DNA of 64,000 bases from assembly GCA_041662205.1 (NCBI GenBank), contig JBAZSZ010000001.1, positions 226,494 to 290,493 on the forward strand, in the 5' to 3' direction. This document shows positions 690-63,349 of the stretch, piece after piece. Below the pieces are notes generated by a model, which saw nothing but the letters and a program-made list of their open reading frames with translations, was not told where the DNA came from and did no database searches. Position numbers and translations under genes: made by a program. Source of the stretch: Minisyncoccota bacterium. GTDB lineage: Bacteria > Patescibacteriota > Minisyncoccia > Phycocordibacterales > UBA9973. Each line of letters starts with the position of its first letter. The stretch's first letter is position 1.

Positions 690-1333
690 AATGGACTTTA
701 ATTCAAAAAACACCCAACCCTACTATCGAAGCCTATGGATACGAGGACAAGCGAGTCAAAGAATTTTTAAGGCAAGAAGGCGGTCTTAGATGTGTATATT
801 GTGCTGTACATGAAAATGCTCTCGGTGGAGTACAAGGATTTCATGTTGAGCATTACAAACCAAAAAGACGATTCCCAGTATTAATTAATAGTCTCAATAA
901 TCTTTTTTACTCTTGTCCAATCTGTAATCGATTTAAATCTAGTGATTGGCCAGCAGAACCAAATAAGAAGTTTGGAAACAGTTCATATCCTAATCCTTCT
1001 CAAGTTGACTACGCTATTCTTTTTGAAGTTGACCAAAAGAGTGGTTCGGTTAACGGAAAATTTGTAGCTTCAAAGTATATAGTTGAACGTCTATATTTTA
1101 ACCGCCCACAGTTAATATTGGAACGTCGACAGTATTTTCTTGACGAGCAACTTAATTCGCTGAATGAAAAAAATAAAGACCTAATCAAGGAACTAAAAAC
1201 TAGGAGCGATAAGAGATCACTTGCATATTTAGCCAAACTTGCGGATTTTAGCATTAAGTTAAACGAGTTGTTTCTTACCCTAAAGAAAATACCATCTTAT
1301 GAGATTAGTGACGTAACTAAACAAAGATCATGA
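686..1333 (+). CDS. HNH family endonuclease
   Basis: HNH core: CVYCAVHE...GFHVEHYKPK...INSLNNLFYSCPICNRFK (His-Asn-Asn plus Cys ligands). Translationally coupled on both sides (ATGA overlaps). Confidence 0.7.
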   Translation: MKWTLIQKTPNPTIEAYGYEDKRVKEFLRQEGGLRCVYCAVHENALGGVQGFHVEHYKPKRRFPVLINSLNNLFYSCPICNRFKSSDWPAEPNKKFGNSSYPNPSQVDYAILFEVDQKSGSVNGKFVASKYIVERLYFNRPQLILERRQYFLDEQLNSLNEKNKDLIKELKTRSDKRSLAYLAKLADFSIKLNELFLTLKKIPSYEISDVTKQRS

Positions 1334-23319: not shown

Positions 23320-25073
23320 AAACTGAAACTAAGCAATGCCAAAACTGTAAGGAAAACTTCGTGATAGAGCAGGAAGATTTTAATTTTTACGAAAAAATAA
23401 AAGTCCCAACTCCGACTTTTTGTCCGCTATGTCGCGCGCAAAGAAGATTTGTTTTTAGAAATGAACGTAAACTTTTTAAAATCAAAGATGCTTTTACGGG
23501 TAAAAATATTTTTTCACTTTTTCCAGCAGAAAGTGGCAGAAAAGTCATTACTCAAGAAGAATGGTATGGAGACAGCTGGGATGCTATGGAATATGGGAGA
23601 GATTATGATTTTTCTAAAACATTCTTTGAACAATTTTTTGAACTTGAAAAAAAAGTGCCTATCTATAACCTAAATGTGCAGAGAATGATCAACAGCCCAT
23701 ATTCAGGAAATGCAACAGCCTTAAAGAATTGCTATCTTTGTTTTCATTCTAATTATTCTGAGGACTGTATGTATGGCAGTGCTAATGATTTTTGTAGAGA
23801 CTGTGTGGATACTTCTCATATTCAACATTCAGAACGTTGCTATGAATCTTTTTGGCTTAATAAATGTTATCAATGCTATTTCACCATAAAATCTGAAGAC
23901 TCTCGTAATTTGTATTTTTGCAGAGATTGCGTAGGTTGTAATGATTGTTTTGGTTGCGCAAATCTACGTAAGTCTTCCTATTGCATTTTTAATAAACAAT
24001 ACACGAAAGAAGAATACCAAAAAGAATTAGAAAAGATGAAACTGGAAACTATTTCAGGCACAAAAGAAGCGAGAGAGAAAGTTAGAGTATTTTGGAATAC
24101 TCAACCTATTAAAAATCACCAAGGACTTAAAAATTTAAATTCAACAGGATCTTTTGTGACAAATTGTAAAAATGTTAATGATGGTTATTTAATTCGAGAA
24201 GGTGAAAATATGCGCTACTGTCAATCCATGCAAGTACCTGCAAATAAAGATTGTTACGATACTTTTGCTTGGGGAGAAAATACAGAGCTTTCTTATGAAA
24301 CTGCAATATGTGGTGAAAATTCTTACAATATGAAATTTAGTTTTAATTGCTGGCCCACCTGTAGAGATAGTGAATATTGCATGGATCTTTTTAGTTGTTC
24401 AGATTGTTTTGGTTGTGTGGGTTTGAAAAAAAAGCAATATTGCATTTTTAATAAACAATTTACAAAAGAAGAATATCAAAAAATTGTGGGAAAAATTAAA
24501 GAACAAATGGATGAAGTTCCTTATGTAGATAAACAAGGTGTTATTTATAAATACGGAGAATTTTTTCCAGCTGAATTTTCTCAACTTGGGTATAATAATA
24601 CTGTAGCTCCTCAACATTTTCCACTGACAAAAGTAGAGGCAGAAAAGAAAGGATATTTATGGGTAGAAGCACCGCAAAGTGAGTATAAAATGACCATTAA
24701 GTCTTCCGAACTCCCAACCTCCATTCCAGAAGAAGATGAGATTCTAAAAGAAATCATAGAATGCGAGAACTGTAAAAAAGCTTATCGCATAATGGAAAAT
24801 GAATTGATTTTCTTGCGCAAGGAAAAACTACCTCTACCTAATTTGTGTCATGATTGCAGATATGATAGAAGAATAAAGGATAGGCTGACTATCAAATTAT
24901 ACGAAAGGTCATGTATGTGCGCAGGTGCTAAAGATGAAACTGGGATTTATAAAAATACAGTAAAACATCTTCATGGAGGTGAGCCATGTAGAGAGAAATT
25001 TAAGACTGGATATGCTCCAGAAAATAAAGAGGTAGTATATTGTGAAAAATGTTATCAGCAGGAAGTTTATTAA
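23316..25073 (+). CDS. Cys-rich zinc-ribbon-repeat protein, paralog family member A (unknown function), embedded in the pur operon
   Basis: N-terminus CQNCKENF..FYEKIKVPTPTFCPLCRAQRR. Internal CxxC-rich repeats (CRDCVGCNDCFGC..YCIFNKQYTKEEYQK occurs twice). C-terminus VYCEKCYQQEVY is identical in the paralogs at 54810 and 56041. Confidence 0.6.
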   Translation: MKTETKQCQNCKENFVIEQEDFNFYEKIKVPTPTFCPLCRAQRRFVFRNERKLFKIKDAFTGKNIFSLFPAESGRKVITQEEWYGDSWDAMEYGRDYDFSKTFFEQFFELEKKVPIYNLNVQRMINSPYSGNATALKNCYLCFHSNYSEDCMYGSANDFCRDCVDTSHIQHSERCYESFWLNKCYQCYFTIKSEDSRNLYFCRDCVGCNDCFGCANLRKSSYCIFNKQYTKEEYQKELEKMKLETISGTKEAREKVRVFWNTQPIKNHQGLKNLNSTGSFVTNCKNVNDGYLIREGENMRYCQSMQVPANKDCYDTFAWGENTELSYETAICGENSYNMKFSFNCWPTCRDSEYCMDLFSCSDCFGCVGLKKKQYCIFNKQFTKEEYQKIVGKIKEQMDEVPYVDKQGVIYKYGEFFPAEFSQLGYNNTVAPQHFPLTKVEAEKKGYLWVEAPQSEYKMTIKSSELPTSIPEEDEILKEIIECENCKKAYRIMENELIFLRKEKLPLPNLCHDCRYDRRIKDRLTIKLYERSCMCAGAKDETGIYKNTVKHLHGGEPCREKFKTGYAPENKEVVYCEKCYQQEVY

Positions 25074-25078
25074 AAAAA

Positions 25079-25831
25079 ATGAAAAAACCAAAAATAATAA
25101 TAATGTCGGGGTATGGATTAAATTGTGAAGAAGAAACAAAATTCGCTTTTGAAAAAGCGGGAGGAAATGCCGACATCATACATATTAATGATTTAATAAA
25201 AAAACCTAAAATGCTTTCAGGGTATCAAATTTTAGTTTTTCCTGGAGGATTTTCTTTTGGTGATGATACAGGTAGCGGAAAAGCTTATGCTAATAAATTT
25301 AAAAATCATTTAGCAAAAGAATTAGCAGAATTTTTATCTCGTGATACTTTAGCTTTAGGTATTTGTAATGGATTTCAAATAATAACTAATTTAGGAATAT
25401 TGCCTGGTGGACTTACTTATAATAAAAAAGGAAAATATTTAGACAGATGGGTGGATTTAAAAGCCAAAGGGGATAGTCCTTGGTTGAAAAATATTGGAAA
25501 AATATCATTACCAATAGCGCATGGTGAAGGACGTTATATAATTTCCTCTAAAGAATACAAAAAAATGAAAGAGAATAATGAAATTGCTTTCATATACTCA
25601 AATGGAGAAATTTGCGAGTTTCAAAACCTAGAAAAAAACCCAAATGGATCAGAACATGACATCGCAGGAGTTTTGGCATATAATGGGAGAGTTCTAGGTA
25701 TGATGCCACATCCGGAGAGAGCAATGTTTTCACATCAAAATCCAATGTGGCAAATGAATAAAAAAGTTTCCAAAGAAGGAGTAGGATTACAAATTTTTAA
25801 AAACGGTATTAATTATTTTTTAAATTCATGA
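25079..25831 (+). CDS. purQ: phosphoribosylformylglycinamidine synthase glutamine amidotransferase subunit PurQ
   Basis: Class I GATase: nucleophile LGICNGFQ and catalytic HPE near the C-terminus. ATG at 25079 chosen over the overlapping upstream start. Confidence 0.85.
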   Translation: MKKPKIIIMSGYGLNCEEETKFAFEKAGGNADIIHINDLIKKPKMLSGYQILVFPGGFSFGDDTGSGKAYANKFKNHLAKELAEFLSRDTLALGICNGFQIITNLGILPGGLTYNKKGKYLDRWVDLKAKGDSPWLKNIGKISLPIAHGEGRYIISSKEYKKMKENNEIAFIYSNGEICEFQNLEKNPNGSEHDIAGVLAYNGRVLGMMPHPERAMFSHQNPMWQMNKKVSKEGVGLQIFKNGINYFLNS

Positions 25832-27225
25832 GCGAATTAAAAGAAAAGTGTGGAATCGTAGGAATATACGGTAAGGATTTACCTATTGCTCGGTTAGCAT
25901 TTTTTGCCTTATTTGCATTACAACACAGAGGACAAGAAGCATCAGGAATAACCACAAATGATGGTAAAAAGTTTCGTACCCATAAAGGAGCAGGGCTCGT
26001 ATCTCAAGTATATACAGAAAAAACAATCAAAAAACTGACTGGATATGTAGCCATAGGACACAATAGATATTCTACCTCCAAAGGAGGAGCGCTAAATCAC
26101 GCACAACCAGTTGTAAATAATGATAAGTCTTTTGCTCTAGCGCACAATGGCAATTTGCCAAGCACTAAAGCATTAGAGAATTTTCTCTCTTCAAAAAAAG
26201 TATTGAAAAAAGATCGCAATGATTCAGAGCTCATGGCTGATGCAATTGATTTTTATCTCAAAGAAGGTAACTCAATTTCAAAATCTGTAGAAAAATCCTT
26301 TCCTTTATTTACTGGAGCTTTTTCTTTAGTAATGATGACTAAAGATACCTTGGTCGCCGTGCGAGACGCTTATGGAATGCGTCCGCTAGCTATAGGAAAG
26401 CTCAGCCTTGGTTATGTTGTTGCTTCCGAGACTTGCGCTCTTCAAACTGTCGGCGCAACATTTTTAAGAGAAGTAAAACCTGGAGAAATGATTATTATAA
26501 ATAAAAGTGGTCTTAAAAGTGTCCAACTCGCACCACCCAATCCAAAACACGATATATTTGAATATGTTTATTTCGCTCGACCAGATAGTGTGCTGAACGG
26601 CAAATTAATTTATGATGTTAGAAGAAATTTTGGAAAAGTTTTAGCTAGTGAATTTAAGAAAAAAGTTGATATTATCGTACCGGTACCCGATACGGCAATG
26701 CCGGTGGCCATAGGGTATAGTCAAGCTTCAGGTATTCCAATGGAGATGGCTTTGGTGAAAAATCGTTATGTTCATAGAACTTTTATCGAGCCCGACCAAA
26801 AATCCAGACGAAATAGTGTGGCACTCAAACTCATACCTTTACCACAAATTTTAAAAGGTAAAAAAATTATAGTAATAGATGATTCTATTGTCAGGGGACA
26901 TACCTGTAGAAAATTAGTTAAAACACTTTTTAAATCAGGCGCCAAGGAAGTGCATCTTTTAATTTCTTCCCCACCTGTTCGTTTTCCAGACTTTTATGGC
27001 ATGGATACTCCTAACCAAGATGAATTAATTGCTTCTTATAAAACAACGGAAGAAGTACGCAAATTCATGGGTGCTACATCACTCCATTATCTTTCTCTCG
27101 ATGGATTAATAAAAGCTATTGGACTACCAAAAGATAAATTATCTACTTCGTGCTTTACCGGTATTTATCCAATTGACTTAAAAGAACGCAAAGATGAAGT
27201 GGATTACGATGTTTCAAGGGAATAA
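25828..27225 (+). CDS. purF: amidophosphoribosyltransferase
   Basis: N-terminal nucleophile CGIVGIYG; PRTase motif VIDDSIVRG. Confidence 0.9.
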   Translation: MSELKEKCGIVGIYGKDLPIARLAFFALFALQHRGQEASGITTNDGKKFRTHKGAGLVSQVYTEKTIKKLTGYVAIGHNRYSTSKGGALNHAQPVVNNDKSFALAHNGNLPSTKALENFLSSKKVLKKDRNDSELMADAIDFYLKEGNSISKSVEKSFPLFTGAFSLVMMTKDTLVAVRDAYGMRPLAIGKLSLGYVVASETCALQTVGATFLREVKPGEMIIINKSGLKSVQLAPPNPKHDIFEYVYFARPDSVLNGKLIYDVRRNFGKVLASEFKKKVDIIVPVPDTAMPVAIGYSQASGIPMEMALVKNRYVHRTFIEPDQKSRRNSVALKLIPLPQILKGKKIIVIDDSIVRGHTCRKLVKTLFKSGAKEVHLLISSPPVRFPDFYGMDTPNQDELIASYKTTEEVRKFMGATSLHYLSLDGLIKAIGLPKDKLSTSCFTGIYPIDLKERKDEVDYDVSRE

Positions 27226-27236
27226 AAATAAATATT

Positions 27237-27851
27237 ATGGGCACGAAAATAAAATTGGCAATATTAATTTCTGATGCCGGTACTGGCACTAATTTAAAAG
27301 CTATTATCGATGGAGTTAATTCCGGTACAATCAACGCTGAAATTTGCGCAGTAATTTCAGATACTATAAATGCAAAAGGACTAGAACATGCTAAGGCAAA
27401 TAATTTAAAAATTGAAATTTGTGAAAATAAAAAAGACTTACTGCCACTTTTAAAAAAAATAGAGTCGGATTATGTTTGCTTGGCTGGCTGGAAACAAATT
27501 ATTCTAGATGAAGTGATTCTCGCTTTTCCAAATAAGATTTTAAATTTACACCCTGGACTAATTCCTGACACTGTTGAAGTAAACTATAAAAATCCTGATG
27601 GGACAGATGCTCTTTGGAATAAAGGCATGATGACCAATAAAGCAATCAAGAATTTCTTTGATCAAAAGTCTACTTTTGCCGGTTCGAGTGTCCATTTTTT
27701 AACTTTAAATTTTGATTTTGGGCCAGTCCTAGGAAGAACTTTTGAGAAAATTGAAGAGAGTGACAATATCGAATCCTTATACGAAAGATTAAAGAAAAAA
27801 GAAAACAAGCTATATATAGAAGTTTTAGAAAAATTGTGTCAAAATGAATAA
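27237..27851 (+). CDS. purN: phosphoribosylglycinamide formyltransferase
   Basis: SDAGTGTNLKAIID N-terminus and LNLHPGLIP; sits between purF and purD. Confidence 0.7.
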   Translation: MGTKIKLAILISDAGTGTNLKAIIDGVNSGTINAEICAVISDTINAKGLEHAKANNLKIEICENKKDLLPLLKKIESDYVCLAGWKQIILDEVILAFPNKILNLHPGLIPDTVEVNYKNPDGTDALWNKGMMTNKAIKNFFDQKSTFAGSSVHFLTLNFDFGPVLGRTFEKIEESDNIESLYERLKKKENKLYIEVLEKLCQNE

Positions 27852-29136
27852 TATGCAAAAAATTTTAATTATAGGTTCTGGCGGAAGGGAACACGCTATC
27901 GGGTGGAAAGTAGCGCAATCACCAAAAGCTGGACAGATCTTTTTCGCCCCTGGAAATGGCGGAACTAGCGATATCGGCATCAATGTAGATATAAAAGCGA
28001 CAGATATTTCTGGATTATTAGAATTTGCTCAAAAAGAAAAAATAGATTTGACATTGGCCTTGCCTGATGACCCGCTCGCACTTGGAATTGCAGACGAATT
28101 TAAAAAAAGCAATTTGCGTATTTTTGGTCCGACTCAAAATGCCAGCAAAATAGAATGGTCAAAGGCTTTTTCCAAAGACTTTATGCATCGACACAATCTT
28201 TCAACTGCAAAATTTGAAACATTTGGTGATTTTGAAAAAGCCAAAGATTACGTTAGAAGGCAATCAATGCCGATTGTTATAAAAGCGAGCGGTCTGGCCT
28301 TAGGCAAAGGTGTAATCATTTGCCAGAATCTAGAAGAAGCAAATAAAGCGCTCGAGGATATGTTTGTAAAAAAAGTTTTTGGAGATGCTGGCACTACCAT
28401 AGTGATAGAAGAATTTTTAATCGGACCAGAAATTTCTATTCATGCTTTTACGGACGGTCAGAATTATAAAATGTTTCCTACTTCACAGGATCATAAGAAA
28501 ATAGGTGAAAATGATACTGGGTTGAATACCGGCGGAATGGGTACGATTGCACCACTTCCTTTTGTAACAGATGAACTTTTGGAAAATATTGAGAAAAATA
28601 TCGTCGCTCCAACTGTTGACGCCATGAGCAAAGACGGCAATCCATTTTTAGGTGTGATTTATCCCGGACTCATGCTCACCCAAAATGGTCCTAAAATTCT
28701 TGAATATAATGCGCGTTTTGGTGACCCAGAAACACAAACCTATATGCGACTTTTAGATACGGATATCTTAGACATTTTTAACGCCTGTGTTGATGGGAAG
28801 CTCGATCAAATACAAATAAATTGGAGTAAAAAATTTGCTTGCACGATAGTCCTGGCTTCTGGAGGGTATCCGGAAAATTACGAAAAGGGGAAAGTAATTT
28901 CAGGAATTGAAGAAGCAGAAATGCAACCAGATATTGTAGTCTTCCATGCTGGTACAAAAATACAGAATAATCAGCTTGTTACAAACGGCGGACGAGTGCT
29001 AGGGGTTACTGCTACTGGCGACACCCTAGAAGAAGCGCTTGAAAAAGCTTACAAAGCCATAGAAAAAATTTCTTTTGAAGGTATGCAATACCGAAAAGAT
29101 ATAGGCAAAGGTGCACTAAAAATAAAAAATTTCTAA
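27844..29136 (+). CDS. purD: phosphoribosylamine--glycine ligase
   Basis: ILIIGSGGREHAI start and ATP-grasp core. Confidence 0.9.
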   Translation: MNNMQKILIIGSGGREHAIGWKVAQSPKAGQIFFAPGNGGTSDIGINVDIKATDISGLLEFAQKEKIDLTLALPDDPLALGIADEFKKSNLRIFGPTQNASKIEWSKAFSKDFMHRHNLSTAKFETFGDFEKAKDYVRRQSMPIVIKASGLALGKGVIICQNLEEANKALEDMFVKKVFGDAGTTIVIEEFLIGPEISIHAFTDGQNYKMFPTSQDHKKIGENDTGLNTGGMGTIAPLPFVTDELLENIEKNIVAPTVDAMSKDGNPFLGVIYPGLMLTQNGPKILEYNARFGDPETQTYMRLLDTDILDIFNACVDGKLDQIQINWSKKFACTIVLASGGYPENYEKGKVISGIEEAEMQPDIVVFHAGTKIQNNQLVTNGGRVLGVTATGDTLEEALEKAYKAIEKISFEGMQYRKDIGKGALKIKNF

Positions 29137-30515
29137 TTATCCCAATTGAAAAATTGTTCTCGGTCTGGGCCGGTACCGACGGAGATGATCTTTATATTAA
29201 GGTCGGAGAGTTTATTTTTTATATATTTTAAATAGGAGACGAGTTCTTTGGAAACTTTCTTTTTATTGTTTACGCCGTAATTTTTTTCTCCCCAGCCGTG
29301 GATATCTTCTGTCACCACATTCGTTACTTTACTTAAATAAAGTGGAAACTCTTTTAAAATTTTATTTTTATTTTTCTCTTTTACTTTGTATCCCGTGACC
29401 ACTTTTATTTTATCACTCAAACAAATATCAGCTTTGTTTATAAAAATTCTATTTGCACCCGAAAGCTCTATGGCATGGCGCAAAGCAAATAAATCAAGCC
29501 AACCGCACATCCGCGGACGGCCAGTAGTCGCTCCGAATTCTTGCCCCGCATTCTGAAAAAGCTTTTCCAATGCTTCATCTTTTATTCTAGCAGGGAAGTT
29601 TCCACCGCCTACTTTAGTAGTATAAGCCTTGATCACTCCATAGATATTTCGCAAATAAGTATGAGGCACGCCCAAACCCAAGCAAACGTTGGCTGGTAGG
29701 GTATTACTGCTTGTAACATTAGGATAATCACCAAAATCAACATCCAACATCACCGCTTGTGCGCCTTCGGCTAAAATATTTTTTCCGTCTTTCAGTCTTT
29801 TTTGAATTAAAGATGATACGTCACAAATTTTAAGTTTCTTTATTTCTTTTACTACTTTCAACCATTTTTTCTTTGATTTTTTTATTTTTTTTAGATCAAT
29901 TTCAAAACCATATTTTTCTCGGTACATATTCAAAAGATTCATATGAAATTCAGACAAAATCTTTTCTTTCTTTTCAAAATCCGGTAATAATATATCACCC
30001 ATCAAAAATGCTCTCCTGTTTCGCACATCAGCATAAGCTGGACCAATACCTCTAGATGTCGTACCTATCTTTGTTCCTAGTTTATCGTTTAATTTACTTC
30101 GGCGATGTTCTTCGGCTTGATCTAAAAAAGGATGTAAGTATGAAACTAATTTTGCTCGATTAGAAATAAAAAGACGAGGAACAACATTGAATCCTAAATT
30201 TTTTAATTGAGCAATTTCTGAAATCAAAGACACAGCATCTACCACAACACCATTGCCAATAAATAATTCAATTTTTTTGTGAAGGCAACCAGACGGAACA
30301 ATGTGCCCAATAAAAGTAGTTTTGCCTATTTTGAGAGTGTGTCCAGCATTAGCACCCCCTTGAAAACGAGCTACTCCAGAATAGATACCAGAAGATAAAA
30401 GTTGGTCTATATTTTTACCTTTTCCTTCGTCTCCCCATTGAAGGCCGACAACCACGTCGATAAATCCTTTATTGCCCAACACTGTAGTTAGGAGATTCTT
30501 TAGTAATGACGACAT
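29133..30515 (-). CDS. purA: adenylosuccinate synthetase
   Basis: [12 protein letters not shown]-loop and GIGPAY. Confidence 0.9.
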
Positions 30516-54809: not shown

Positions 54810-55988
54810 CTAATAAACCTCCTGCTGATAACATTTCTCACAATAAACTATCTCAGGCCTATTTGGCGCATAGCTGGTTTCGAATTCATTCTGGCACCCA
54901 ATATTCATGCATTTTCTATGCCAAAGTTTAAGTGAATTCTCTAATTTTAAACGATCACTATTTCTGCAGAAAAAACATTTACGTGGTATTGGAATAGAAT
55001 ATTTTTTGTAAAAGGTAAATTCATTTTGGATAATTTTATAATTTCTACCACATTCTACACAAGTAAGTACTTCATTTAAAATATTTTCCGAAATATCTAA
55101 AATAGAATCCGGTATATGTTCTGACTTTAATGTCTCTTTATTAATAGTTTTTTGAATTTTGTCCCACCATTTATAGCCCCCTTTTTTAGCTTCTTCTTTT
55201 GATAGTGGAAAATATTCCATCGCCATAGTTTCATTATAACCAAAATTAGACATTGAAGCTGGAAAAAATTCTCCATATTCCCCAGTTTTCTTCATATGCT
55301 CAATCAATTTATCTCGCAATTTAAAATATTCTTCCTTAGAATATTCTTTGTTCAAAATACAATATTGGCCATGCTTTATAGCACAACAACCAAAAAGATG
55401 TTTTGAAGAATGACAATATGAAGTAGCACAACGAATGCACTCATACAAGAACTCATTTTTTGATCGAAGATTCATGCAATCCACAATGTCTTTACCCGCT
55501 AAACTAAAAAAACAATACATTGCATTTTCAGCATGCCAGCCAGAAAAACACATATAACAGTTTTTTGAAAACCACCAATCGTGTGTATATTCGCAGTTTA
55601 AACTAGCAATACCATCGTCGTTTACTACTGACATATGAGGAACTTTTCTTATAAGTTCTCTGAATTGAGAAAAAAATGTTTTTGAAAAATCATAATCAGA
55701 ACCATAGCTTTTTGCATCCCATTTATCACTCCACCAACATTTATTGCAGTAAATAGTAAGACCCGAATCTGGAGCATAAATAGACACTACTCCTTTTCCA
55801 CATAAATCACATTTTCTGTTAAAAAGAGACATTTTATTTCTCCACGCCCAGCGTCTTTGTCTACGACAATCTGTACAAAAAGTTGGAAGAGGAACTTTTA
55901 TTTTTTCATAAAATCCAAAATCGTCCGGCTCTATTACGAAATCTTTTTCACAATTCTGACATATTTTGTTTTCACTTTTATCTTTCAT
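54810..55988 (-). CDS. Cys-rich zinc-ribbon-repeat protein, paralog family member B
   Basis: CQNCEKDFVIEPDDFGFYEKIKVPLPTFCTDCRRQRR N-terminus; C-terminus ...PEIVYCEKCYQQEVY is identical to members A and C. Confidence 0.6.
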   Translation of the reverse strand: MKDKSENKICQNCEKDFVIEPDDFGFYEKIKVPLPTFCTDCRRQRRWAWRNKMSLFNRKCDLCGKGVVSIYAPDSGLTIYCNKCWWSDKWDAKSYGSDYDFSKTFFSQFRELIRKVPHMSVVNDDGIASLNCEYTHDWWFSKNCYMCFSGWHAENAMYCFFSLAGKDIVDCMNLRSKNEFLYECIRCATSYCHSSKHLFGCCAIKHGQYCILNKEYSKEEYFKLRDKLIEHMKKTGEYGEFFPASMSNFGYNETMAMEYFPLSKEEAKKGGYKWWDKIQKTINKETLKSEHIPDSILDISENILNEVLTCVECGRNYKIIQNEFTFYKKYSIPIPRKCFFCRNSDRLKLENSLKLWHRKCMNIGCQNEFETSYAPNRPEIVYCEKCYQQEVY

Positions 55989-55997
55989 ATTTTTAAT

Positions 55998-56017
55998 CTA
56001 CTTTAGTTAAGTAAAGT
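55998..56017. promoter_or_regulatory. palindromic motif TACTTTA-N6-TAAAGTA between the two tandem Cys-rich genes
   Basis: The same 7-N6-7 palindrome recurs at 61405-61424 and 62389-62407. Confidence 0.5.
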
Positions 56018-56040
56018 AATTAAAATACACTAGCCACAGG

Positions 56041-57744
56041 CTAATAAACCTCTTGCTGGTAACATTTCTCACAATAAACTATCTCTGGCCTATCTGGTGC
56101 ATAACTTGTCTCAAATTCTACTTCACATTTTTTATCTACGTGAAAATGCCCAGCTTTGTTGCACATACACTGTCTGCGCCAAAGCTTGTTTGGTCCTCTA
56201 TTTTTATAACGTTTAATGTGACGGCATTCAGGGCAATTGCGCGGTATTGGTATTTCCATTCTTTTATAAAAAGCCAGCTCATCTTCTATAATTCGATAAT
56301 TTTTATTGCACTCTGTACACAAAAAGACTTCTTTGTTTACATCAAAATCTTTTAATAAATTCATTATAGAATCTGGGAAACTTTTCCAATCTATTGTTTC
56401 TTTGCCATACGTCCCCCGAGGAGTATCTTCCCATTTAAAACCTTGAGCTAGCGCTTCTTCTTTGGTGAGTGGGAGTTCGTCCATAACAGAAGATTCATTG
56501 TAACCGAATGGTGAAATATCCTTTGGAAAAAAGTCACCATAAATACCACCTTCTTTCATTTTTGAAATAATTTCTGCGCGCAATTTTTTATAATCTTCTT
56601 TGCTATATTGTTTATTTAAAATACAATAAGAACCCTTTATTAAAGAAACGCATCCAAAACAATTATTAGAATTTGGGCAATTTAAACAATATTCCATAAA
56701 TTGTGAGCCCCAGCAATATTGAGAACAAATAATATTTGACGCTTCGAGACCAGTATTAAGGGTATTATAAATTAATTCTGATGTGCGTCCTGCAGTGTTG
56801 CAATCCATGCAATCTTTCGCTCCACGCCAAACATGCATAGAATAAGCATTATCTTCCGCATCATAAGAATGGAAACATTGACGATTATTTTTTACATTTG
56901 TCATATAGTTTCCAGTAGAATTTACGGCATTGAAAATCTCAGCGAACTTTCTAGGTTTGTCTTTTATAAAATTTTGAAATTCTTTTTTAAAAGATTCCAC
57001 TCCGGAATGCGTATCTAATCTAAAAGATTTTAATTTCTTTTCATATTCCTCTTTTGTGTATGATTCATTAAAAATACAATTTTTTTGTCCACGCAGATTT
57101 ATACATCCTAAACAACTTGTACAATTTCGGCAATCAAGAAGAAAAGAACTATCAAGACAACTATGGCACCCTTTAGAAAATCGTAGATTATTGCAGTCAT
57201 AACAATCATCAACTTCATATGACAATTCTACTTTGTTTGTAAAAGAACAATCAACTAAATCTTTTGAAAGCTGGATCCAATAGCAATTAATACAATTCTC
57301 ATTATTTGAACTTTCTATGATCACATAGCAGTTTTTATTATCAGCTGTAAAATTTAAATAATGACAATTAACATTCCTTAAACCAGTTAAGGCTGGTTTT
57401 GGAGTTTTTTCCCAAAGCTTCCTAAATTGTTCAAAGAATGATTTTTTAGAGTCATAATCTTCCGCATATTTTTTAGCTTCTAAATCGTCGCCATACCAAC
57501 AATTAGAACACCAACTTGGATAAGTTTTGTTTGGGCTAAAAACTGAAATGGTATCTTTTTTACAATTATCACAAATGCGTTTATAAAAACATCTTTCATT
57601 TTTATAACAAAGTCGAAGTTGCATTCGACACTCTGGACAAATTTTGGGAGAAAGCACACCAATCTTTTCATAAAATCCAAAATCATCCGGCTCTATTAGG
57701 AAATCTTTTTCACAATTCTGACATTGCTTAGTTTGTGCTTCCAT
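56041..57744 (-). CDS. Cys-rich zinc-ribbon-repeat protein, paralog family member C
   Basis: TKQCQNCEKDFLIEPDDFGFYEKI N-terminus; two internal C..C.GC..L....YCI.N..Y.KE.Y modules; C-terminus PEIVYCEKCYQQEVY. Confidence 0.6.
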   Translation of the reverse strand: MEAQTKQCQNCEKDFLIEPDDFGFYEKIGVLSPKICPECRMQLRLCYKNERCFYKRICDNCKKDTISVFSPNKTYPSWCSNCWYGDDLEAKKYAEDYDSKKSFFEQFRKLWEKTPKPALTGLRNVNCHYLNFTADNKNCYVIIESSNNENCINCYWIQLSKDLVDCSFTNKVELSYEVDDCYDCNNLRFSKGCHSCLDSSFLLDCRNCTSCLGCINLRGQKNCIFNESYTKEEYEKKLKSFRLDTHSGVESFKKEFQNFIKDKPRKFAEIFNAVNSTGNYMTNVKNNRQCFHSYDAEDNAYSMHVWRGAKDCMDCNTAGRTSELIYNTLNTGLEASNIICSQYCWGSQFMEYCLNCPNSNNCFGCVSLIKGSYCILNKQYSKEDYKKLRAEIISKMKEGGIYGDFFPKDISPFGYNESSVMDELPLTKEEALAQGFKWEDTPRGTYGKETIDWKSFPDSIMNLLKDFDVNKEVFLCTECNKNYRIIEDELAFYKRMEIPIPRNCPECRHIKRYKNRGPNKLWRRQCMCNKAGHFHVDKKCEVEFETSYAPDRPEIVYCEKCYQQEVY

Positions 57745-59902: not shown

Positions 59903-61315
59903 TTAGGAATTATATTCCTCAATAAATTTATACAAAAGCCGTACTGGAGTACCAAGAGCGCCGATAGCTAGATTTTCCCCTGACATAGGTGTCATCCTAG
60001 AAGCAATGTCTACATGTGCCCATTTGGGAGTTTTTTTATTTTCATCTTTATTTTTTATAAATTGATATAAGAAGATTGCGCCATAGATAGCTCCACCATA
60101 ACGAGAATCTTTATTATGAACATTTGTAAAGTCACCTATGGATCCTTTTATTTCATTTTCATATTCTTCCCACATGGGTAAACGCCAAACATAGTCTCCA
60201 GTTTTTTCTCCTGTTTCTTCAAGTTTTTTTGCCAATTCATCATCATTACTAAAAATTGCCGAAGCTCTCTCTCCGAGGGCTACCGCTGCAGCACCAGTCA
60301 AAGTTGCAACATCTATCACCACATCTGCATTATATTTTCCTGCATAAGTTAACGCATCTGCGAGAATCACCCTTCCCTCTGCGTCAGTATTCAAAACTTC
60401 AATTGTTTGCCCCGACATTGAACGAATCACATCTCCAGGACGATAACTTTTTCCCGAAGTCATATTTTCTACAGCAGGAATAAGTGCAATTACATTCTTT
60501 TTTAATTTCATTTTCGCAGCTAAAGCAATAGTATGTATTACTGCCGCGCCACCAGACATGTCCATATTCATTCCAAGAAGCGAAGACGATGGTTTCAAAT
60601 TTATACCACCCGCATCAAAAGTCACCCCTTTGCCTACGAGAACAATTGGCTTTTCATTTTTACTACTACCCCAGTATTCCATAATAATAAATTTTGATTC
60701 TTCATCTGAACCTCGCCCCACTGAAAGAATAGCTTGCATTTTTTGTTTCTCCATTTCTTTCTCACCCAGCACTGTGACTTTTACCGGTAAATTTTTTACT
60801 GTATACTTTGCTTTTTTTGCTAAAATTTGTGGAGTCATGTCTCCTCCGGGAATATTTGATAGTGTTCGAGTTTTGTTTACCTCTTCTGCTATTGTGTGAC
60901 CTTTCAAAATAGCTTTTTCTATTTCAGTATTTGTTCCAGAAATTATTATTTCTTTGATTAAGTTAAATCCTTCTTTGGGTGGAGTTTTATATTCATTAAA
61001 TTCATAATTAGCAAAATCCAGTTGAGAACCTATTACTTCTGCCAATTCTGCTTCAGAAAGTTTTATATTTTTAAATACAAAATCATTAAAATCAAAAGCT
61101 AACTTTTCTGCTTTTATGTTTTTTGCATTTACAATCATCTTACGCACAAGCAAAAAAAGCTTTCGCAAGTTCATTTTTTCTGCTTCATCGCATTTTAAAT
61201 AGAGTGACTTTATTCCACTCTCCTTCATAATTTCGTCTTTATTTTTTGAGCCAACAGAGACAAAAAGTGCCTCCTCTTTTACATCTTTTGCATTATCCTT
61301 AAAAGTTATTTTCAT
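59903..61315 (-). CDS. pepA: leucyl aminopeptidase (M17)
   Basis: NTDAEGRVILADAL signature; M17 catalytic domain. Confidence 0.85.
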   Translation of the reverse strand: MKITFKDNAKDVKEEALFVSVGSKNKDEIMKESGIKSLYLKCDEAEKMNLRKLFLLVRKMIVNAKNIKAEKLAFDFNDFVFKNIKLSEAELAEVIGSQLDFANYEFNEYKTPPKEGFNLIKEIIISGTNTEIEKAILKGHTIAEEVNKTRTLSNIPGGDMTPQILAKKAKYTVKNLPVKVTVLGEKEMEKQKMQAILSVGRGSDEESKFIIMEYWGSSKNEKPIVLVGKGVTFDAGGINLKPSSSLLGMNMDMSGGAAVIHTIALAAKMKLKKNVIALIPAVENMTSGKSYRPGDVIRSMSGQTIEVLNTDAEGRVILADALTYAGKYNADVVIDVATLTGAAAVALGERASAIFSNDDELAKKLEETGEKTGDYVWRLPMWEEYENEIKGSIGDFTNVHNKDSRYGGAIYGAIFLYQFIKNKDENKKTPKWAHVDIASRMTPMSGENLAIGALGTPVRLLYKFIEEYNS

Positions 61316-61404: not shown

Positions 61405-61443
61405 TACTTTACTTGACTAAAGTACTTTAGTTTGATAAAGTAG
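61405..61443. promoter_or_regulatory. nested palindromes (TACTTTA-N6-TAAAGTA plus perfect 14-bp CTAAAGTACTTTAG) overlapping a TTGACT -35-like hexamer upstream of the TrpR-like gene
   Basis: Read directly; ATG of the downstream gene at 61448. Confidence 0.55.
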
Positions 61444-61447
61444 CTGT

Positions 61448-61843
61448 ATGAGTAAAGGAATGAATAAAAATACATCAATCGAAACAGTTAAGCTAATTCA
61501 GGGAATTGGTTCAGGAATGAACTGGAACGATAAGAAAAATAAACAATTTATTGAAGCTATTTTGGTCTTAAAGAATGAAAATGAAGCTAAACTCTTTTTA
61601 CGTGATTTAATGACTGAGAGCGAAATAAAAGAATTTGCTAATCGTCTAGAAGCTGCTCGCCTGCTCTCAAGAGATGTGCAATATAATGCCATTATCGAAA
61701 GCACCGGTCTTTCTTCTGCAACCATCGCACGAATAGCAAAATGGCTGAAAGGGTCGCTTGGTGGATATCGTTTAATTCTATTTCGCCTATCAAACAACCA
61801 TCACAACTCTTCCAAACTTGGGAAAGGGTTACTTTTGAGCTGA
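61448..61843 (+). CDS. YerC/YecD (TrpR-like) family DNA-binding protein
   Basis: LFLRDLMTESEIKEFANRLEAARLL...ATIARIAKWLK is typical of TrpR-like YerC proteins. Confidence 0.6.
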   Translation: MSKGMNKNTSIETVKLIQGIGSGMNWNDKKNKQFIEAILVLKNENEAKLFLRDLMTESEIKEFANRLEAARLLSRDVQYNAIIESTGLSSATIARIAKWLKGSLGGYRLILFRLSNNHHNSSKLGKGLLLS

Positions 61844-62330: not shown

Positions 62331-62366
62331 GGGCTACTCGTAAACGAGTAGCCCATTACTATTTTT
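62331..62366 (+). terminator. rho-independent terminator (gggctactcg-taaa-cgagtagccc plus T-run)
   Basis: Perfect 10-bp stem with tetraloop followed by attactattttta. Confidence 0.75.
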
Positions 62367-62388
62367 ATCCAATTATTTATTTCTATCT

Positions 62389-62407
62389 ACTTTACTAAAC
62401 TAAAGTA
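62389..62407. promoter_or_regulatory. palindromic motif TACTTTA-N5/6-TAAAGTA
   Basis: Third copy of the recurring palindrome. Confidence 0.45.
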
Positions 62408-62425: not shown

Positions 62426-63349
62426 TTAAATTATGTTTTCCTGACTCTCACGCAACCTGGCAATTTGATAAATACTAAAGACGAGAATGATAGCGGCGAG
62501 CCATTGGGTAAATGAAAGCACCGTGTGATTGACGATAAAATCCAATAAAATAGCTACAAACGGAAAAGTTAATTCTAGGATCGTCGAAATGTGAACTGGG
62601 GTTTTTGCTAATCCTTTGTAGTAAATAAGCAAAGCAACCATGCCGGTAGAAACAGCGATCAGCGCCAGCAGACCAAATTGGGAAACATTTGGCAAAGCAA
62701 AACTTCCTTCATTAGTCCTTCCATACAAAAGCACTAATGGTAAAGCAACAACTATGGTAAAAAGAAATCGATAAAACGTACTGACTTCAGCGCGAACTTT
62801 TCCTAAAAGCATTTTAGAAAATGTCGTAGACGAACCCCAAGCAAAAGCAGCACCGAGTGCATAAAGTGCTGCTATTATTGTCCCCTCTCCAGTTTGAAAA
62901 TTCACAACGCCATTTGAAAAAGTAACAAAGTATGCAGAAACTAATGCAAGTAATGCCCATTTGATATACCTGTTATCAAATTTCTCTTTTAGAAAAATGG
63001 TAGCGGTAGTAATAGCAAATAATGGCTGAAGTTTTTGCAAAAGAAATACCACTGAGATGGTAATAAAGTGAACTTTCCCTAAAGCCGTCGTAAACCAAAG
63101 CGTACCTAAAAGTCCGCTCAAAATTGCTATCAAAATAACCAGCCACCATTCACGTTTACTAAGCCTAGTTTCTAAAACGTATTTAAGGACAAAGGGAGAT
63201 AAAATAATTAAACCAATCAAATGCTCAAAGAATATTATAGTGATCGGTGGTAGCAAATATAAATGCTGGCGAATGAGTCCGTCAAAAGCCCAAAGCAAAG
63301 CCGCAATGATAATAAAAACTGGACCTGTGTATCGAAAGTTTTTTAGCAT
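62426..63349 (-). CDS. EamA/DMT-family transporter
   Basis: 10 TM helices with duplicated EamA-like halves. Confidence 0.6.
   Translation of the reverse strand: MLKNFRYTGPVFIIIAALLWAFDGLIRQHLYLLPPITIIFFEHLIGLIILSPFVLKYVLETRLSKREWWLVILIAILSGLLGTLWFTTALGKVHFITISVVFLLQKLQPLFAITTATIFLKEKFDNRYIKWALLALVSAYFVTFSNGVVNFQTGEGTIIAALYALGAAFAWGSSTTFSKMLLGKVRAEVSTFYRFLFTIVVALPLVLLYGRTNEGSFALPNVSQFGLLALIAVSTGMVALLIYYKGLAKTPVHISTILELTFPFVAILLDFIVNHTVLSFTQWLAAIILVFSIYQIARLRESQENII

What the first reader, a model, noticed from the sequence alone, without database searches (positions are those of the whole stretch)
54810..57744. Two further tandem paralogs of the Cys-rich family with an invariant C-terminus, separated by the recurring palindrome
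Seen in sequence:
- The minus-strand genes 56041..57744 (567 aa) and 54810..55988 (392 aa) share the N-terminal KQCQNCEKDF(L/V)IEPDDFGFYEKI module with 23316..25073.
- They share the YDFSKTFF(E/S)QFR block and the C..C.GC..L....YCI.NK.Y.KE.Y module.
- They share an identical C-terminal ...PEIVYCEKCYQQEVY.
- The short member appears to be a single-module version of the long ones.
- A TACTTTA-N6-TAAAGTA palindrome sits in the 52-bp spacer between them.

Three diverged paralogs in a small genome imply real function and diversification (for example, different partner or substrate specificities). I cannot assign the family to any named domain.
Basis: seen in the sequence. Interest (0 to 1): 0.7.

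Follow-up and report, generated by a model that had tools for sequence, protein, structure and literature searches.

The report
Paceibacterial zinc-finger paralogs behind a HisR box
The two neighbouring genes belong to a large, unstudied family of cysteine-rich zinc-finger proteins that tiny-genome Paceibacteria keep in 3 to 12 or more ancient copies, and the palindrome between them is the binding site of a histidine-repressor-type regulator encoded 5 kb away.

Summary
Genes 56041..57744(-) (567 aa), 54810..55988(-) (392 aa) and 23316..25073(+) (585 aa) are intact paralogs, 40-49% identical.

- **Family.** It is very large (over 3,400 clusters at 50% identity), was found only in Patescibacteria/Paceibacteria, and is everywhere called "hypothetical". 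It has no solved-structure or Pfam match beyond sub-threshold zinc-finger hits. It usually sits in same-strand tandem arrays of up to 7-8 genes per locus.
- **Paralogs.** They are ancient. No within-genome pair exceeds 57% identity, and orthogroups are mostly single-copy per genome.
- **The 392-aa gene.** It is a one-off internal deletion of about 175 aa in a normally ~575-aa orthogroup. Its ORF and zinc ligands are intact, but the remaining central module is predicted poorly.
- **The palindrome.** TACTTTA-N6-TAAAGTA matches the published HisR (YerC) operator consensus. A double copy precedes the YerC/YecD gene at 61448..61843. In metagenomes, 80 of 127 double sites precede that gene and 12-13 precede family genes.

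Biochemical function remains unknown. My working guess is zinc-stabilised binding adaptors linked to nucleotide or DNA metabolism.

The parts
56041..57744 (-). CR567: 567-aa family member with full Z-S-S-L-Z architecture. It belongs to conserved orthogroup 'B'. Its start overlaps the scpB stop by 17 nt.
   Evidence: ORF. Orthologues at 54-88% identity, 30 sequences from 30 genomes. AF2 model pLDDT 82.6, pTM 0.83.
57391..57744 (-). CR567 N-terminal double zinc-finger module (aa 1-118): CxxC-x24-CxxC (C8, C11, C36, C39), then CxxC-x17-CxxC (C58, C61, C79, C82), plus the W..D...Y..DYD..FF.QF extension.
   Evidence: Homologous to the C-terminal module by hhalign, probability 99.3%. Weak zf_Tbcl_2 / TIGR04272 hits. 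zf_Tbcl in 41 of 62 relatives. pLDDT about 90.
56545..57390 (-). CR567 central region: two homologous Cys-rich modules (aa 119-262 and 263-400). Each is predicted as short strands ending in FGC..L....YCI.N..Y.KEEY plus a capping helix. This is the most variable part of the family.
   Evidence: hhalign probability 99.5%. AF2 secondary structure, pLDDT 55-80. Conservation profile. No Pfam, PDB or BFVD match.
56350..56544 (-). CR567 acidic linker domain (aa 401-465) carrying the family signature YG.FFP...S.FGYNE...PL.KEEA..GF.W.
   Evidence: Among the best-conserved stretches family-wide. Median net charge -6. pLDDT above 90.
56044..56349 (-). CR567 C-terminal double zinc-finger module (aa 466-567). 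The first finger is strongly basic. It ends in the invariant YCEKCYQQEVY.
   Evidence: Median net charge +6, pI 9.5 for aa 469-520.
54810..55988 (-). CR392: 392-aa member of orthogroup 'C' with an internal deletion of about 175 aa. It also lacks a 9-aa segment (also absent from CR567) and a ~12-aa insert in the C-terminal module. Architecture is Z-(hybrid S)-L-Z.
   Evidence: ORF. 63-69% identical to ~575-aa orthologues. Only an exact copy of this short form exists in the 5.8-billion-sequence protein collection; all other close hits are 557-615 aa. AF2 pLDDT 71.7, with the remnant central module below 50.
55422..55436 (-). Approximate deletion junction in CR392 (aa about 185-189, ...LYECI|RCA|TSYCH...). 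It joins the first half of module 1 to the end of module 2.
   Evidence: Alignment A3.
55999..56018 (.). HisR-type operator (TACTTTA-N6-TAAAGTA), single copy, 10 nt upstream of the CR392 ATG.
   Evidence: Matches the published consensus cacTTTAnnnnnnTAAAgtg (PMC9413887). The same element sits just upstream of family genes in L032, L052, L080, L196 and 12-13 metagenome loci.
56028..56046 (-). Terminator-like hairpin overlapping the CR567 stop codon, followed by UAUUUUAAUU.
   Evidence: -7.8 kcal/mol, z = -2.1. Weak evidence: the consensus scan found 3 such sites against 1.5 expected in shuffles.
23316..25073 (+). CR585: third paralog (orthogroup 'E'), translationally coupled between purL and purQ. 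All four Cys of N-terminal finger 2 are lost.
   Evidence: The purL-CR(1-3)-purQFND slot is also occupied in L041, L078, L079, L117 and L185/L187.
61448..61843 (+). YerC/YecD (HisR)-family TrpR-like regulator, the predicted binder of the palindrome.
   Evidence: PF01371 E=1.8e-17. TIGR02531 64.8 bits against a cut-off of 42.2.
61405..61442 (.). Two overlapping HisR-type boxes ending 6 nt before the regulator's ATG. A -35-like TTGACT lies in the distal spacer and a -10-like TAAAGT is the proximal right arm, which reads as a leaderless, autoregulated promoter.
   Evidence: Conserved in L001. 80 of 127 metagenomic double boxes precede this gene, typically 5-7 nt upstream. The promoter reading is my inference from the sequence.

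Best explanation
Shown:
- The two genes are members of a very large, Paceibacteria-restricted family of cytoplasmic, cysteine-rich proteins (median 36 Cys). The family has no signal peptide.
- The architecture is Z-S-S-L-Z. There is a double treble-clef zinc-finger module at each end (CxxC-x24-CxxC plus CxxC-x17-CxxC, which implies four structural zinc sites). Between them lie two repeated Cys-rich central modules and a conserved acidic linker.
- Genomes keep 3 to 12 or more ancient, mostly single-copy orthogroups, usually as same-strand arrays.
- CR567 is the best-conserved orthogroup (B). CR392 is a lineage-specific internal-deletion derivative of orthogroup C.
- The inter-gene palindrome matches the HisR/YerC operator consensus. 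The same box precedes the YerC/YecD gene at 61448..61843 and, across relatives, a subset of family genes and sometimes the purQFND genes.

Inferred:
- The spacer between the two genes is a weak terminator followed by an operator/promoter for CR392. CR392 is therefore switched independently of CR567, which is co-transcribed with scpAB.
- By analogy with characterised HisR, repression would depend on histidine or a related metabolite.
- Biochemical role (about 35% likely): zinc-stabilised binding adaptors. The conserved end modules, including a strongly basic finger, and the linker would contact a common nucleic-acid or protein partner. The variable central modules would give each paralog its own specificity. 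The work would be connected to nucleotide or DNA handling.
For: - **Family size and range:**
- **Architecture and internal duplications:**
- **Zinc-finger identity:**. The CxxC-x17-CxxC domain binds zinc experimentally in Methanosarcina small proteins (PMC12704099).
- **Structure:** confident AF2 model, pTM 0.83, with no PDB or BFVD analogue.
- **Arrays and copy numbers:**
- **Ancient paralogy:** within-genome identity is at most 57%; orthogroup B has 30 sequences from 30 genomes and C has 16 from 15.
- **CR392 deletion and uniqueness:**
- **CR392 retained constraint:** all end-module Cys are present, and 12.6% of otherwise invariant sites are changed, against 3.7-10.8% in its orthologues.
- **Operator:** 5 window sites against 0.04 expected. 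The regulator is in the YerC/YecD family. The motif matches the published HisR consensus, and HisR binds such a box with histidine in vitro (PMC9413887). The double box is conserved upstream of the regulator in L001 and in 80 of 127 metagenomic sites; 12-13 sites precede family genes and 1 precedes purQ. L196 repeats the window's scpB-CR(B)-box-CR(C) layout.
- **Hints of a nucleotide/DNA link:** the purL-CR-purQ slot is filled in every locus where both pur genes were seen. A T4CP-like ATPase carrying the same zf_Tbcl_2 finger lies beside arrays in 16 of 80 loci. The C-terminal first finger is basic.
Against: - No experiment or characterised homologue bears on the biochemical role.
- Zinc binding is inferred from motifs only.
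- Pfam zinc-finger hits for the three window proteins are below the curated cut-offs.
- AF2 confidence for the central modules is only 55-80 in CR567, and below 50 for the remnant in CR392. Their fold is therefore uncertain, and CR392 may be impaired.
- The box before CR392 is single and 10 nt from the ATG, not the double box at 6 nt seen at the regulator gene.
- No histidine genes were seen among the targets, so the effector in this lineage is unknown.
- Gene neighbourhoods (scpAB, the pur operon, T4CP) vary between lineages. The loci sampled are phylogenetically non-independent.
- The T4CP-like ATPase is absent from the window.
Confidence: 0.6

Rival explanations
1. The family proteins are cargo (effectors) of the Patescibacterial type IV coupling-protein-like ATPase. 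The invariant C-terminus (...YCEKCYQQEVY) would be the recognition signal, and the proteins would be delivered to host cells, with paralogs aimed at different host targets.
For: - A T4CP-like ATPase (TrwB_AAD_bind, TraG-D_C) with a zf_Tbcl_2 finger is the commonest non-family neighbour. It occurs in 16 of 80 loci and is directly adjacent on the same strand in at least 7.
- Patescibacteria carry about 2 T4CP homologues per genome, mostly away from virB4 and of unknown role (PMC12102498).
- The C-terminus is strictly conserved.
- T4CP substrates generally carry C-terminal signals (established knowledge).
Against: - The orthogroups are ancient, single-copy and conserved at housekeeping-like rates, unlike fast-evolving effector repertoires.
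- The conserved C-terminus is part of a zinc knuckle, not a disordered tail.
- There is no T4CP in this 64-kb window.
- Family genes sit inside the pur and scpAB operons.
- The T4CP was not essential for epibiotic growth in the one Patescibacterium tested.
Confidence: 0.12
2. They are enzymes. The invariant linker motif (YG.FFP...S.FGYNE) and the conserved Asp, Glu and Tyr residues of the central modules would form an active site, and each paralog would act on a different substrate (for example a nucleic-acid or protein modification).
For: - Conservation is at housekeeping level; the CR567 orthologue is 63% identical where PurL is 63%.
- Length is tightly conserved at 544-623 aa.
- Orthogroups are single-copy, as expected for a set of substrate-specific enzymes.
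- Invariant polar residues are present.
- Family genes are placed inside a biosynthetic operon.
Against: - No nucleotide- or cofactor-binding motif was found, and there is no Pfam, NCBIfam or PDB similarity to any enzyme.
- The most conserved parts are the zinc fingers, which are typically binding modules.
Confidence: 0.18
3. They are zinc (or other metal) storage or buffering proteins. Paralog number and HisR-type control would tune metal capacity.
For: - Median 36 Cys per protein, about 6%.
- There are at least four CxxC...CxxC sites.
- Histidine is itself a metal ligand, and a histidine-type repressor controls some copies.
Against: - Many central-module Cys are not conserved between paralogs, and one finger has lost all four Cys in CR585 while the fold elements remain.
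- Storage proteins do not need 40%-diverged orthogroups that are each conserved across orders.
- No Zur- or Fur-type site was seen.
Confidence: 0.07
4. The 392-aa gene is a non-functional relic, a decaying copy whose ORF merely has not yet been broken. Only the long paralogs would matter.
For: - The short form is unique among 5.8 billion clustered proteins.
- The closest relative's syntenic locus lacks the gene altogether.
- The remnant central module has AF2 pLDDT below 50.
- It has the highest rate of changes at otherwise invariant sites, 12.6%.
Against: - The 1,179-nt ORF is intact in a 33% G+C genome.
- All end-module zinc ligands are retained.
- The substitution excess is small; two orthologues show 9.5-10.8%.
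- It has its own conserved-type operator.
- Independent single-module forms exist elsewhere (P0205, P0214, P0252).
Confidence: 0.3
5. The palindrome is an RNA hairpin terminator or a dispersed repeat (REP-like) rather than a protein-binding operator.
For: - It lies in a spacer after a stop codon.
- One copy (62388..62407) sits between convergent genes and one (29325..29344) lies inside purA.
Against: - The hairpin is weak (-4 kcal/mol, z = -1.7) and has no U-tract.
- The arms are conserved while the 6-nt spacer varies.
- The distance to the start codon is fixed at 5-7 nt in more than 60 loci.
- The sequence matches the experimentally supported HisR box.
Confidence: 0.05

Closest known systems
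Pfam zf_Tbcl (PF13451) and zf_Tbcl_2 (PF23477) / TIGR04272 CxxC-x17-CxxC 'probable treble-clef' zinc fingers, for example the Methanosarcina mazei small proteins shown to bind zinc (PMC12704099)
   Same: The end modules have the same Cys spacing, including an exact CxxC-x17-CxxC. Relatives hit both models (41 of 62 and 25 of 62; best E 3.5e-7 and 5e-6).
   Different: Those are single small domains or small proteins of unknown function. Here four fingers bracket about 350 aa of central and linker domains that match nothing. The window copies score below the Pfam and NCBIfam cut-offs.
HisR (YerC) histidine repressor regulon of Firmicutes, Actinobacteria and Synergistetes (Ashniev et al. 2022, PMC9413887)
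   Same: The regulator is in the YerC/YecD family (TIGR02531 above cut-off). The operator is a 20-bp palindrome matching cacTTTAnnnnnnTAAAgtg. Boxes precede the regulator's own gene, implying autoregulation.
   Different: The known regulons are his biosynthesis and histidine transport genes. Here the targets seen are the regulator itself (with a divergent M17 aminopeptidase), Cys-rich family genes and sometimes purQFND. Patescibacteria are not among the phyla the paper lists as carrying HisR. The effector in this lineage is untested.
LIM-domain proteins (two contiguous treble-clef zinc fingers used as protein-binding modules)
   Same: Each end module is a pair of adjacent four-ligand zinc fingers. 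Weak LIM hits appear (E=0.0086 for CR392; 3 relatives; avian CRP E=0.23).
   Different: All hits are below threshold. The ligand pattern is all-Cys with different spacing. LIM domains are eukaryotic adaptors, so the resemblance is of kind, not membership.
Substrates and partners of type IV coupling proteins (VirD4/TrwB family)
   Same: A T4CP-like ATPase is the commonest neighbour of the arrays and shares the zf_Tbcl_2 finger.
   Different: No secretion signal, relaxase or T4SS channel genes were seen alongside. The association is absent from the window, and the ATPases may have been exapted for other roles (PMC12102498).

Membership tests
zf_Tbcl / zf_Tbcl_2 / TIGR04272 zinc fingers | HMM score at or above the curated cut-off | tested here: not met
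   Window proteins score 15.4 and 19.8 bits against a cut-off of 27 (PF23477), and 15.3 against 36 (TIGR04272). Relatives do hit: PF13451 in 41 of 62 (best E 3.5e-7) and PF23477 in 25 of 62 (best 5.2e-6). Homology of the module is therefore likely, but formal membership of these copies is not shown.
zf_Tbcl / zf_Tbcl_2 / TIGR04272 zinc fingers | CxxC-x17-CxxC ligand spacing | tested here: met
   CR567 has C58-x2-C61-x17-C79-x2-C82, and C540-x17-C558-x2-C561. CR392 has C60/C63-x17-C81/C84, and C365-x17-C383/C386. CR585 has lost all four Cys of N-terminal finger 2.
zf_Tbcl / zf_Tbcl_2 / TIGR04272 zinc fingers | Zinc actually bound | not testable with these tools
   Shown only for Methanosarcina small proteins with the same motif (PMC12704099).
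HisR (YerC/YecD) regulon | Regulator belongs to the YerC/YecD TrpR-related family | tested here: met
   TIGR02531 64.8 bits against a cut-off of 42.2. PF01371 E=1.8e-17.
HisR (YerC/YecD) regulon | 20-bp palindromic operator cacTTTAnnnnnnTAAAgtg close to the target gene's start | tested here: met
   TACTTTA-N6-TAAAGTA lies 10 nt before the CR392 ATG, and a double box ends 6 nt before the regulator's ATG. Consensus from PMC9413887. The association is conserved in 80 (regulator) and 12-13 (family genes) of 127 metagenomic double sites.
HisR (YerC/YecD) regulon | Regulon made of histidine biosynthesis or transport genes | tested here: not met
   No his or histidine-transport genes were found next to boxes in the window or in the 120 metagenomic loci. 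Targets were the regulator, M17 peptidase, family genes and purQ. Only flanking genes of double boxes were examined.
HisR (YerC/YecD) regulon | Histidine-dependent DNA binding | not testable with these tools
   Demonstrated in vitro only for Ruminococcus gnavus HisR.
LIM domain | Pfam LIM model above cut-off, with the C2HC-C4-type ligand pattern | tested here: not met
   16.7 bits against a cut-off of 22.9. The ligands here are all Cys.
Type IV secretion substrates / T4CP partners | Genetic linkage to a coupling protein and a T4SS channel | tested here: inconclusive
   A T4CP-like ATPase is present in 16 of 80 related loci but not in the window. virB4 and channel genes were not searched.
Anti-phage defence systems | Match to a PADLOC model, or presence on phage or viral contigs | tested here: not met
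   PADLOC gave nothing except a weak Csx20 hit (E=0.0022) on CR585. There were no phage or IMG/VR relatives.
Pseudogene (for the 392-aa copy) | Frameshift, premature stop or loss of essential residues | tested here: not met
   The ORF is intact and the end-module Cys are all retained. However, the in-frame ~175-aa deletion is unique to this genome and the remnant is modelled at low confidence.
Ferredoxin-type 4Fe-4S proteins | CxxCxxCxxxCP motif or a Fer4 Pfam hit | tested here: not met
   Module 1 has C-x2-C-x2-C-x2-C (C205, C208, C211, C214), not the ferredoxin spacing. This run of Cys is not conserved in module 2 or in CR392. There were no Fer4 hits.

The most novel reading that the evidence does not exclude
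The 3 to 12 or more ancient paralogs are subunits or interchangeable specificity factors of a Paceibacteria-specific cytoplasmic machine. This would be a zinc-stapled scaffold that works with the exapted T4CP-like ATPase (which carries the same zinc finger) in DNA or nucleotide acquisition or handling. Its composition would be reset by a HisR-type metabolite sensor together with de novo purine synthesis. That would be a previously unrecognised cellular system, occupying an estimated 1-4% of these minimal genomes.
Probability: 0.1. Interest if true: 0.85.

Novelty: new variant of a known kind. Interest (0 to 1): 0.55.

Why it matters
Paceibacteria have genomes of well under 1 Mb, according to the literature. 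Even so, they maintain up to a dozen 1.7-kb paralogs of this family, each conserved at housekeeping rates. Such investment implies an important lineage-specific function that nobody has studied.

This work supplies concrete handles for that study:
- a domain map (Z-S-S-L-Z);
- an orthogroup framework;
- three recurrent genomic contexts: the purL-purQ slot, scpAB, and a T4CP-like ATPase sharing the zinc finger;
- a regulator and operator pair.

It also extends the HisR/YerC box to Patescibacteria with a rewired regulon. That makes both the regulator and its targets directly testable in vitro, without cultivating the organism.

Tried and rejected
- **Sequence libraries.** Pfam, NCBIfam, PADLOC and PHROGs on the three proteins gave only sub-threshold zinc-finger hits, one weak Csx20 hit and one weak hit to a PHROG of unknown function.
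- **Solved structures by sequence.** A single-protein search and two profile searches found nothing significant.
- **Phage or viral origin.** Rejected: no relatives in 50,697 phage records or in IMG/VR.
- **Recent duplication or arms-race expansion.** Rejected: no within-genome pair exceeds 57% identity.
- **Fixed array order (operon of subunits).** Not supported: orthogroup order varies between genomes.
- **A specific orthogroup tied to the pur slot or to the T4CP.** Rejected: different orthogroups occupy these positions.
- **Palindrome as terminator.** Rejected.
- **dN/dS between paralogs.** Not attempted. At 40-49% amino-acid identity, synonymous sites are saturated.
- **Literature.** Searches for the family found nothing.

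Full report
**Observation**

The three ORFs are present and intact at the stated coordinates. A three-way alignment gives 49% (392-aa protein) and 40% (585-aa protein) identity to the 567-aa protein. It shows the shared N-terminal CxxC block, the FGC..L....YCI.NK.Y.KEEY block (twice in the long proteins, once in the short) and the identical C-terminus. Two details need correcting. YDFSKTFF is exact only in the 392- and 585-aa proteins. The tandem pair shares 16 identical terminal residues, whereas all three share 12.

The spacer is 52 bp and holds TACTTTAGTTAAGTAAAGTA. The palindrome occurs 5 times in the window at up to 1 mismatch, against 0.04 expected.

**Architecture**

I sliced an alignment of 62 family members and compared the pieces as profiles.
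- The N-terminal 118 residues are homologous to the C-terminal 102 (probability 99.3%, E=3e-20).
- Residues 119-262 are homologous to residues 263-400 (probability 99.5%, E=3e-22).
- An N-module versus central-module control gives 0.4%.

The layout is therefore Z-S-S-L-Z. Each Z module is two four-Cys fingers (CxxC-x24-CxxC, then CxxC-x17-CxxC).

The window proteins hit Pfam zf_Tbcl_2 and TIGR04272 only below cut-off. However, 41 of 62 relatives hit zf_Tbcl and 25 of 62 hit zf_Tbcl_2. The CxxC-x17-CxxC domain has been shown to bind zinc in Methanosarcina small proteins (PMC12704099). The central modules and the acidic linker match nothing in Pfam, NCBIfam, PADLOC or PDB sequences.

Family-wide, the termini and residues 361-420 are the most conserved, and the central modules are the most variable. 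The first C-terminal finger is strongly basic (median net charge +6) and the linker is acidic (-6). The median Cys count is 36 per protein.

**The family**

- A word-indexed search returned more than 6,900 hits, all named "hypothetical protein" from Paceibacterota, Nomurabacteria or Patescibacteria.
- An exhaustive HMMER scan of 50%-identity representatives found 3,482 proteins at E<=1e-3 and 1,265 at E<=1e-30. Almost all are 540-600 aa.
- No relatives occur in phage genomes or IMG/VR.
- Literature searches found no description of the family.

**Arrays and paralogy**

Mapping the window proteins onto 80 fetched loci showed that family genes usually lie in same-strand tandem arrays. There are up to 7-8 genes per 13-kb locus and 12 copies on one 25-kb stretch of a single contig.

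Lengths are tightly conserved at 544-623 aa. Among 164 full-length proteins from 70 genomes, within-genome pairs are 28-57% identical (median 42%). Average-linkage clusters behave as single-copy orthogroups:
- the group containing the 567-aa protein has 30 members from 30 genomes;
- the group containing the 392-aa protein has 16 members from 15 genomes.

The paralogs are therefore ancient and individually maintained, not recent duplicates. Orthogroup order within arrays is not conserved.

**The short gene**

The 392-aa protein is 63-69% identical to ~575-aa orthologues. Compared with them, it lacks:
- about 175 residues, running from the middle of central module 1 to near the end of module 2;
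- a 9-residue segment, which is also absent from the 567-aa protein;
- a ~12-residue Cys/His insert in the C-terminal module.

In the 5.8-billion-sequence collection, the only other 392-aa sequence is an exact copy from an NCBI Paceibacterota MAG (locus WC694_01495, 377,753-bp contig). All other close hits are 557-615 aa. The closest relative's syntenic locus runs scpA-scpB-CR-GlyT-VanY and has no second copy.

The evidence on whether it still works is mixed.
- For function: the ORF is intact and all end-module Cys are kept. Changes at otherwise invariant sites are only slightly raised, at 12.6% against 3.7-10.8% in orthologues. Independent single-module forms exist elsewhere in the family.
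- Against function: its AF2 model is weaker (pLDDT 71.7, pTM 0.53), and the remnant central module scores below 50.

I rate functional variant versus decaying relic at roughly 70:30.

**The palindrome**

Two overlapping copies end 6 nt before the ATG of 61448..61843. That gene is a Trp_repressor-fold protein that passes the NCBIfam YerC/YecD model (64.8 bits, cut-off 42.2).

YerC of Bacillus subtilis is HisR. Its operators in Firmicutes, Actinobacteria and Synergistetes share the consensus cacTTTAnnnnnnTAAAgtg. Ruminococcus gnavus HisR binds such a site in vitro only when histidine is present. Autoregulation is common in that family (PMC9413887). The window motif fits this consensus.

The double box is conserved upstream of the regulator in the closest relative. 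Of these:
- 80 lie about 5-7 nt upstream of a YerC/YecD homologue;
- 12-13 lie 4-24 nt upstream of a family gene;
- 10 share the intergenic region with a divergent M17 peptidase gene;
- 1 directly precedes purQ.

Single boxes also sit in inter-paralog spacers in L032, L052 and L080. L196 reproduces the window's scpB-CR(B)-box-CR(C) layout.

As RNA the palindrome is a weak hairpin (-4 kcal/mol) with no U-tract, so it is not a terminator. A separate terminator-like hairpin overlaps the stop codon of the 567-aa gene.

At the regulator gene I read the following from the sequence. A -35-like TTGACT lies in the distal box's spacer. After 17 nt comes a -10-like TAAAGT, which is the proximal right arm. 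The ATG follows 6 nt later. This looks like a leaderless promoter occluded by the repressor. That reading is my inference and is untested.

**Context clues to function**

- The 567-aa gene overlaps scpB by 17 nt, and the same overlap occurs in the closest relative.
- The 585-aa gene is translationally coupled between purL and purQ, inside a 20-kb purine supercluster. In every fetched locus where both purL and purQ were seen (L041, L078, L079, L117, L185), 1-3 family genes lie between them, and L187 shows the same block with purL beyond the end of the locus. In L117 and L185/L187 a HisR box sits inside the block. The orthogroup occupying that slot differs between genomes.
- The commonest non-family neighbour is a T4CP-like ATPase (TrwB_AAD_bind, TraG-D_C) that itself carries a strong zf_Tbcl_2 finger (E=3.4e-15). 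It occurs in 16 of 80 loci and is often directly adjacent.
- Patescibacteria average about two such T4CP genes per genome. Most lie far from virB4, and their role is open (PMC12102498).
- These links are suggestive, but they vary by lineage and are not independent samples. The ATPase is absent from the window.

**Interpretation**

The descriptive conclusions are well supported: family identity, architecture, ancient paralogy, the deletion origin of the short gene, and the HisR-type operator.

The biochemical role is not established. My preferred reading, at about 35%, is a set of zinc-stabilised binding adaptors. Their conserved ends and linker would engage a common nucleic-acid or protein partner. 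Their variable central modules would confer specificity. The work would be tied to nucleotide or DNA handling.

Alternatives are substrate-specific enzymes (about 18%), T4CP-dependent exported effectors (about 12%) and metal buffering (about 7%).

**Side observation**

The tandem pair shares two short tracts of 91-96% nucleotide identity, at codons 7-28 and 547-567 of the 567-aa gene. Overall nucleotide identity is 60%, and neither gene shares such tracts with the 585-aa gene. This suggests short-tract gene conversion. It partly explains why their termini look so alike.

Noticed in passing
window 62388..62407: A perfect HisR-type box lies between the 3' ends of convergent genes: small zinc-ribbon ORFs followed by a strong terminator hairpin at about 62333..62358, and the EamA transporter gene 62426..63349(-). 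No gene start is nearby, so its target, if any, is unexplained. The closest relative (L001) has no box at the equivalent position.
   Followed up: partly
window 29325..29344: A HisR-type box with one mismatch (TACTTTACTTAAATAAAGTG) lies inside the 3' end of purA (29133..30515, minus strand), just past the end of purD. The ...TAAAGTG variant is also the form seen upstream of family genes in L052 and L080. It could be an internal site or chance.
   Followed up: no
window 20398..29136; loci L041, L078, L079, L117, L185, L187: A conserved 'slot' between purL and purQ holds 1-3 Cys-rich family genes in every locus where both pur genes were seen. Different orthogroups occupy it in different genomes. 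The flanking Pur proteins are 63-81% identical, whereas the embedded protein is only about 40% identical to the window's copy.
   Followed up: partly
loci L024, L029, L030, L040, L069, L070, L074 and others (16 of 80): A soluble T4CP-like ATPase (TrwB_AAD_bind plus TraG-D_C) with a C-terminal zf_Tbcl_2 finger and a long low-complexity tail sits next to family arrays. It is sometimes accompanied by a Trp-rich membrane protein with no Pfam match (cluster c68) or lies near dnaK/dnaJ.
   Followed up: partly
window 57661..57726 vs 55899..55964, and 56044..56106 vs 54813..54875: Short tracts of 91-96% nucleotide identity between the two tandem paralogs at their 5' and 3' ends, against 60% overall. 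Such tracts are absent from comparisons with the third paralog. This suggests short-tract gene conversion.
   Followed up: partly
window 23316..25073 (aa about 58-85): In the pur-embedded paralog all four Cys of the second N-terminal finger are replaced (IKDAFTGKNIFSLFPAESGRKVITQEEW), while the surrounding fold motifs remain. This is a zinc-less version of the finger. It is also seen in at least one other family member (L040:4209-5969).
   Followed up: partly
window 59903..61315(-) and 61448..61843(+): The M17 leucyl aminopeptidase gene is transcribed divergently from the HisR-like gene across the boxed intergenic region. The same pairing occurs in 10 metagenome loci. It may be a HisR-controlled route to amino acids from peptides.
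   Followed up: partly
window 1330..4355: An Eco57I-type DNA methyltransferase (1330..2958) sits next to a large serine recombinase (2955..4355, minus strand). This may be a mobile restriction-modification island at the window's edge.
   Followed up: no
window 20398..23319: PurL is 973 aa, about 230 aa longer than the typical small PurL (as I recall it). No separate purS was noticed, so the N-terminal extension may be a fused PurS-like domain.
   Followed up: no
locus L074 5789..7530: One array member appears split across two reading frames: a 391-aa ORF followed by a C-terminal match in another frame. It is either a candidate frameshifted pseudogene or an assembly error.
   Followed up: no
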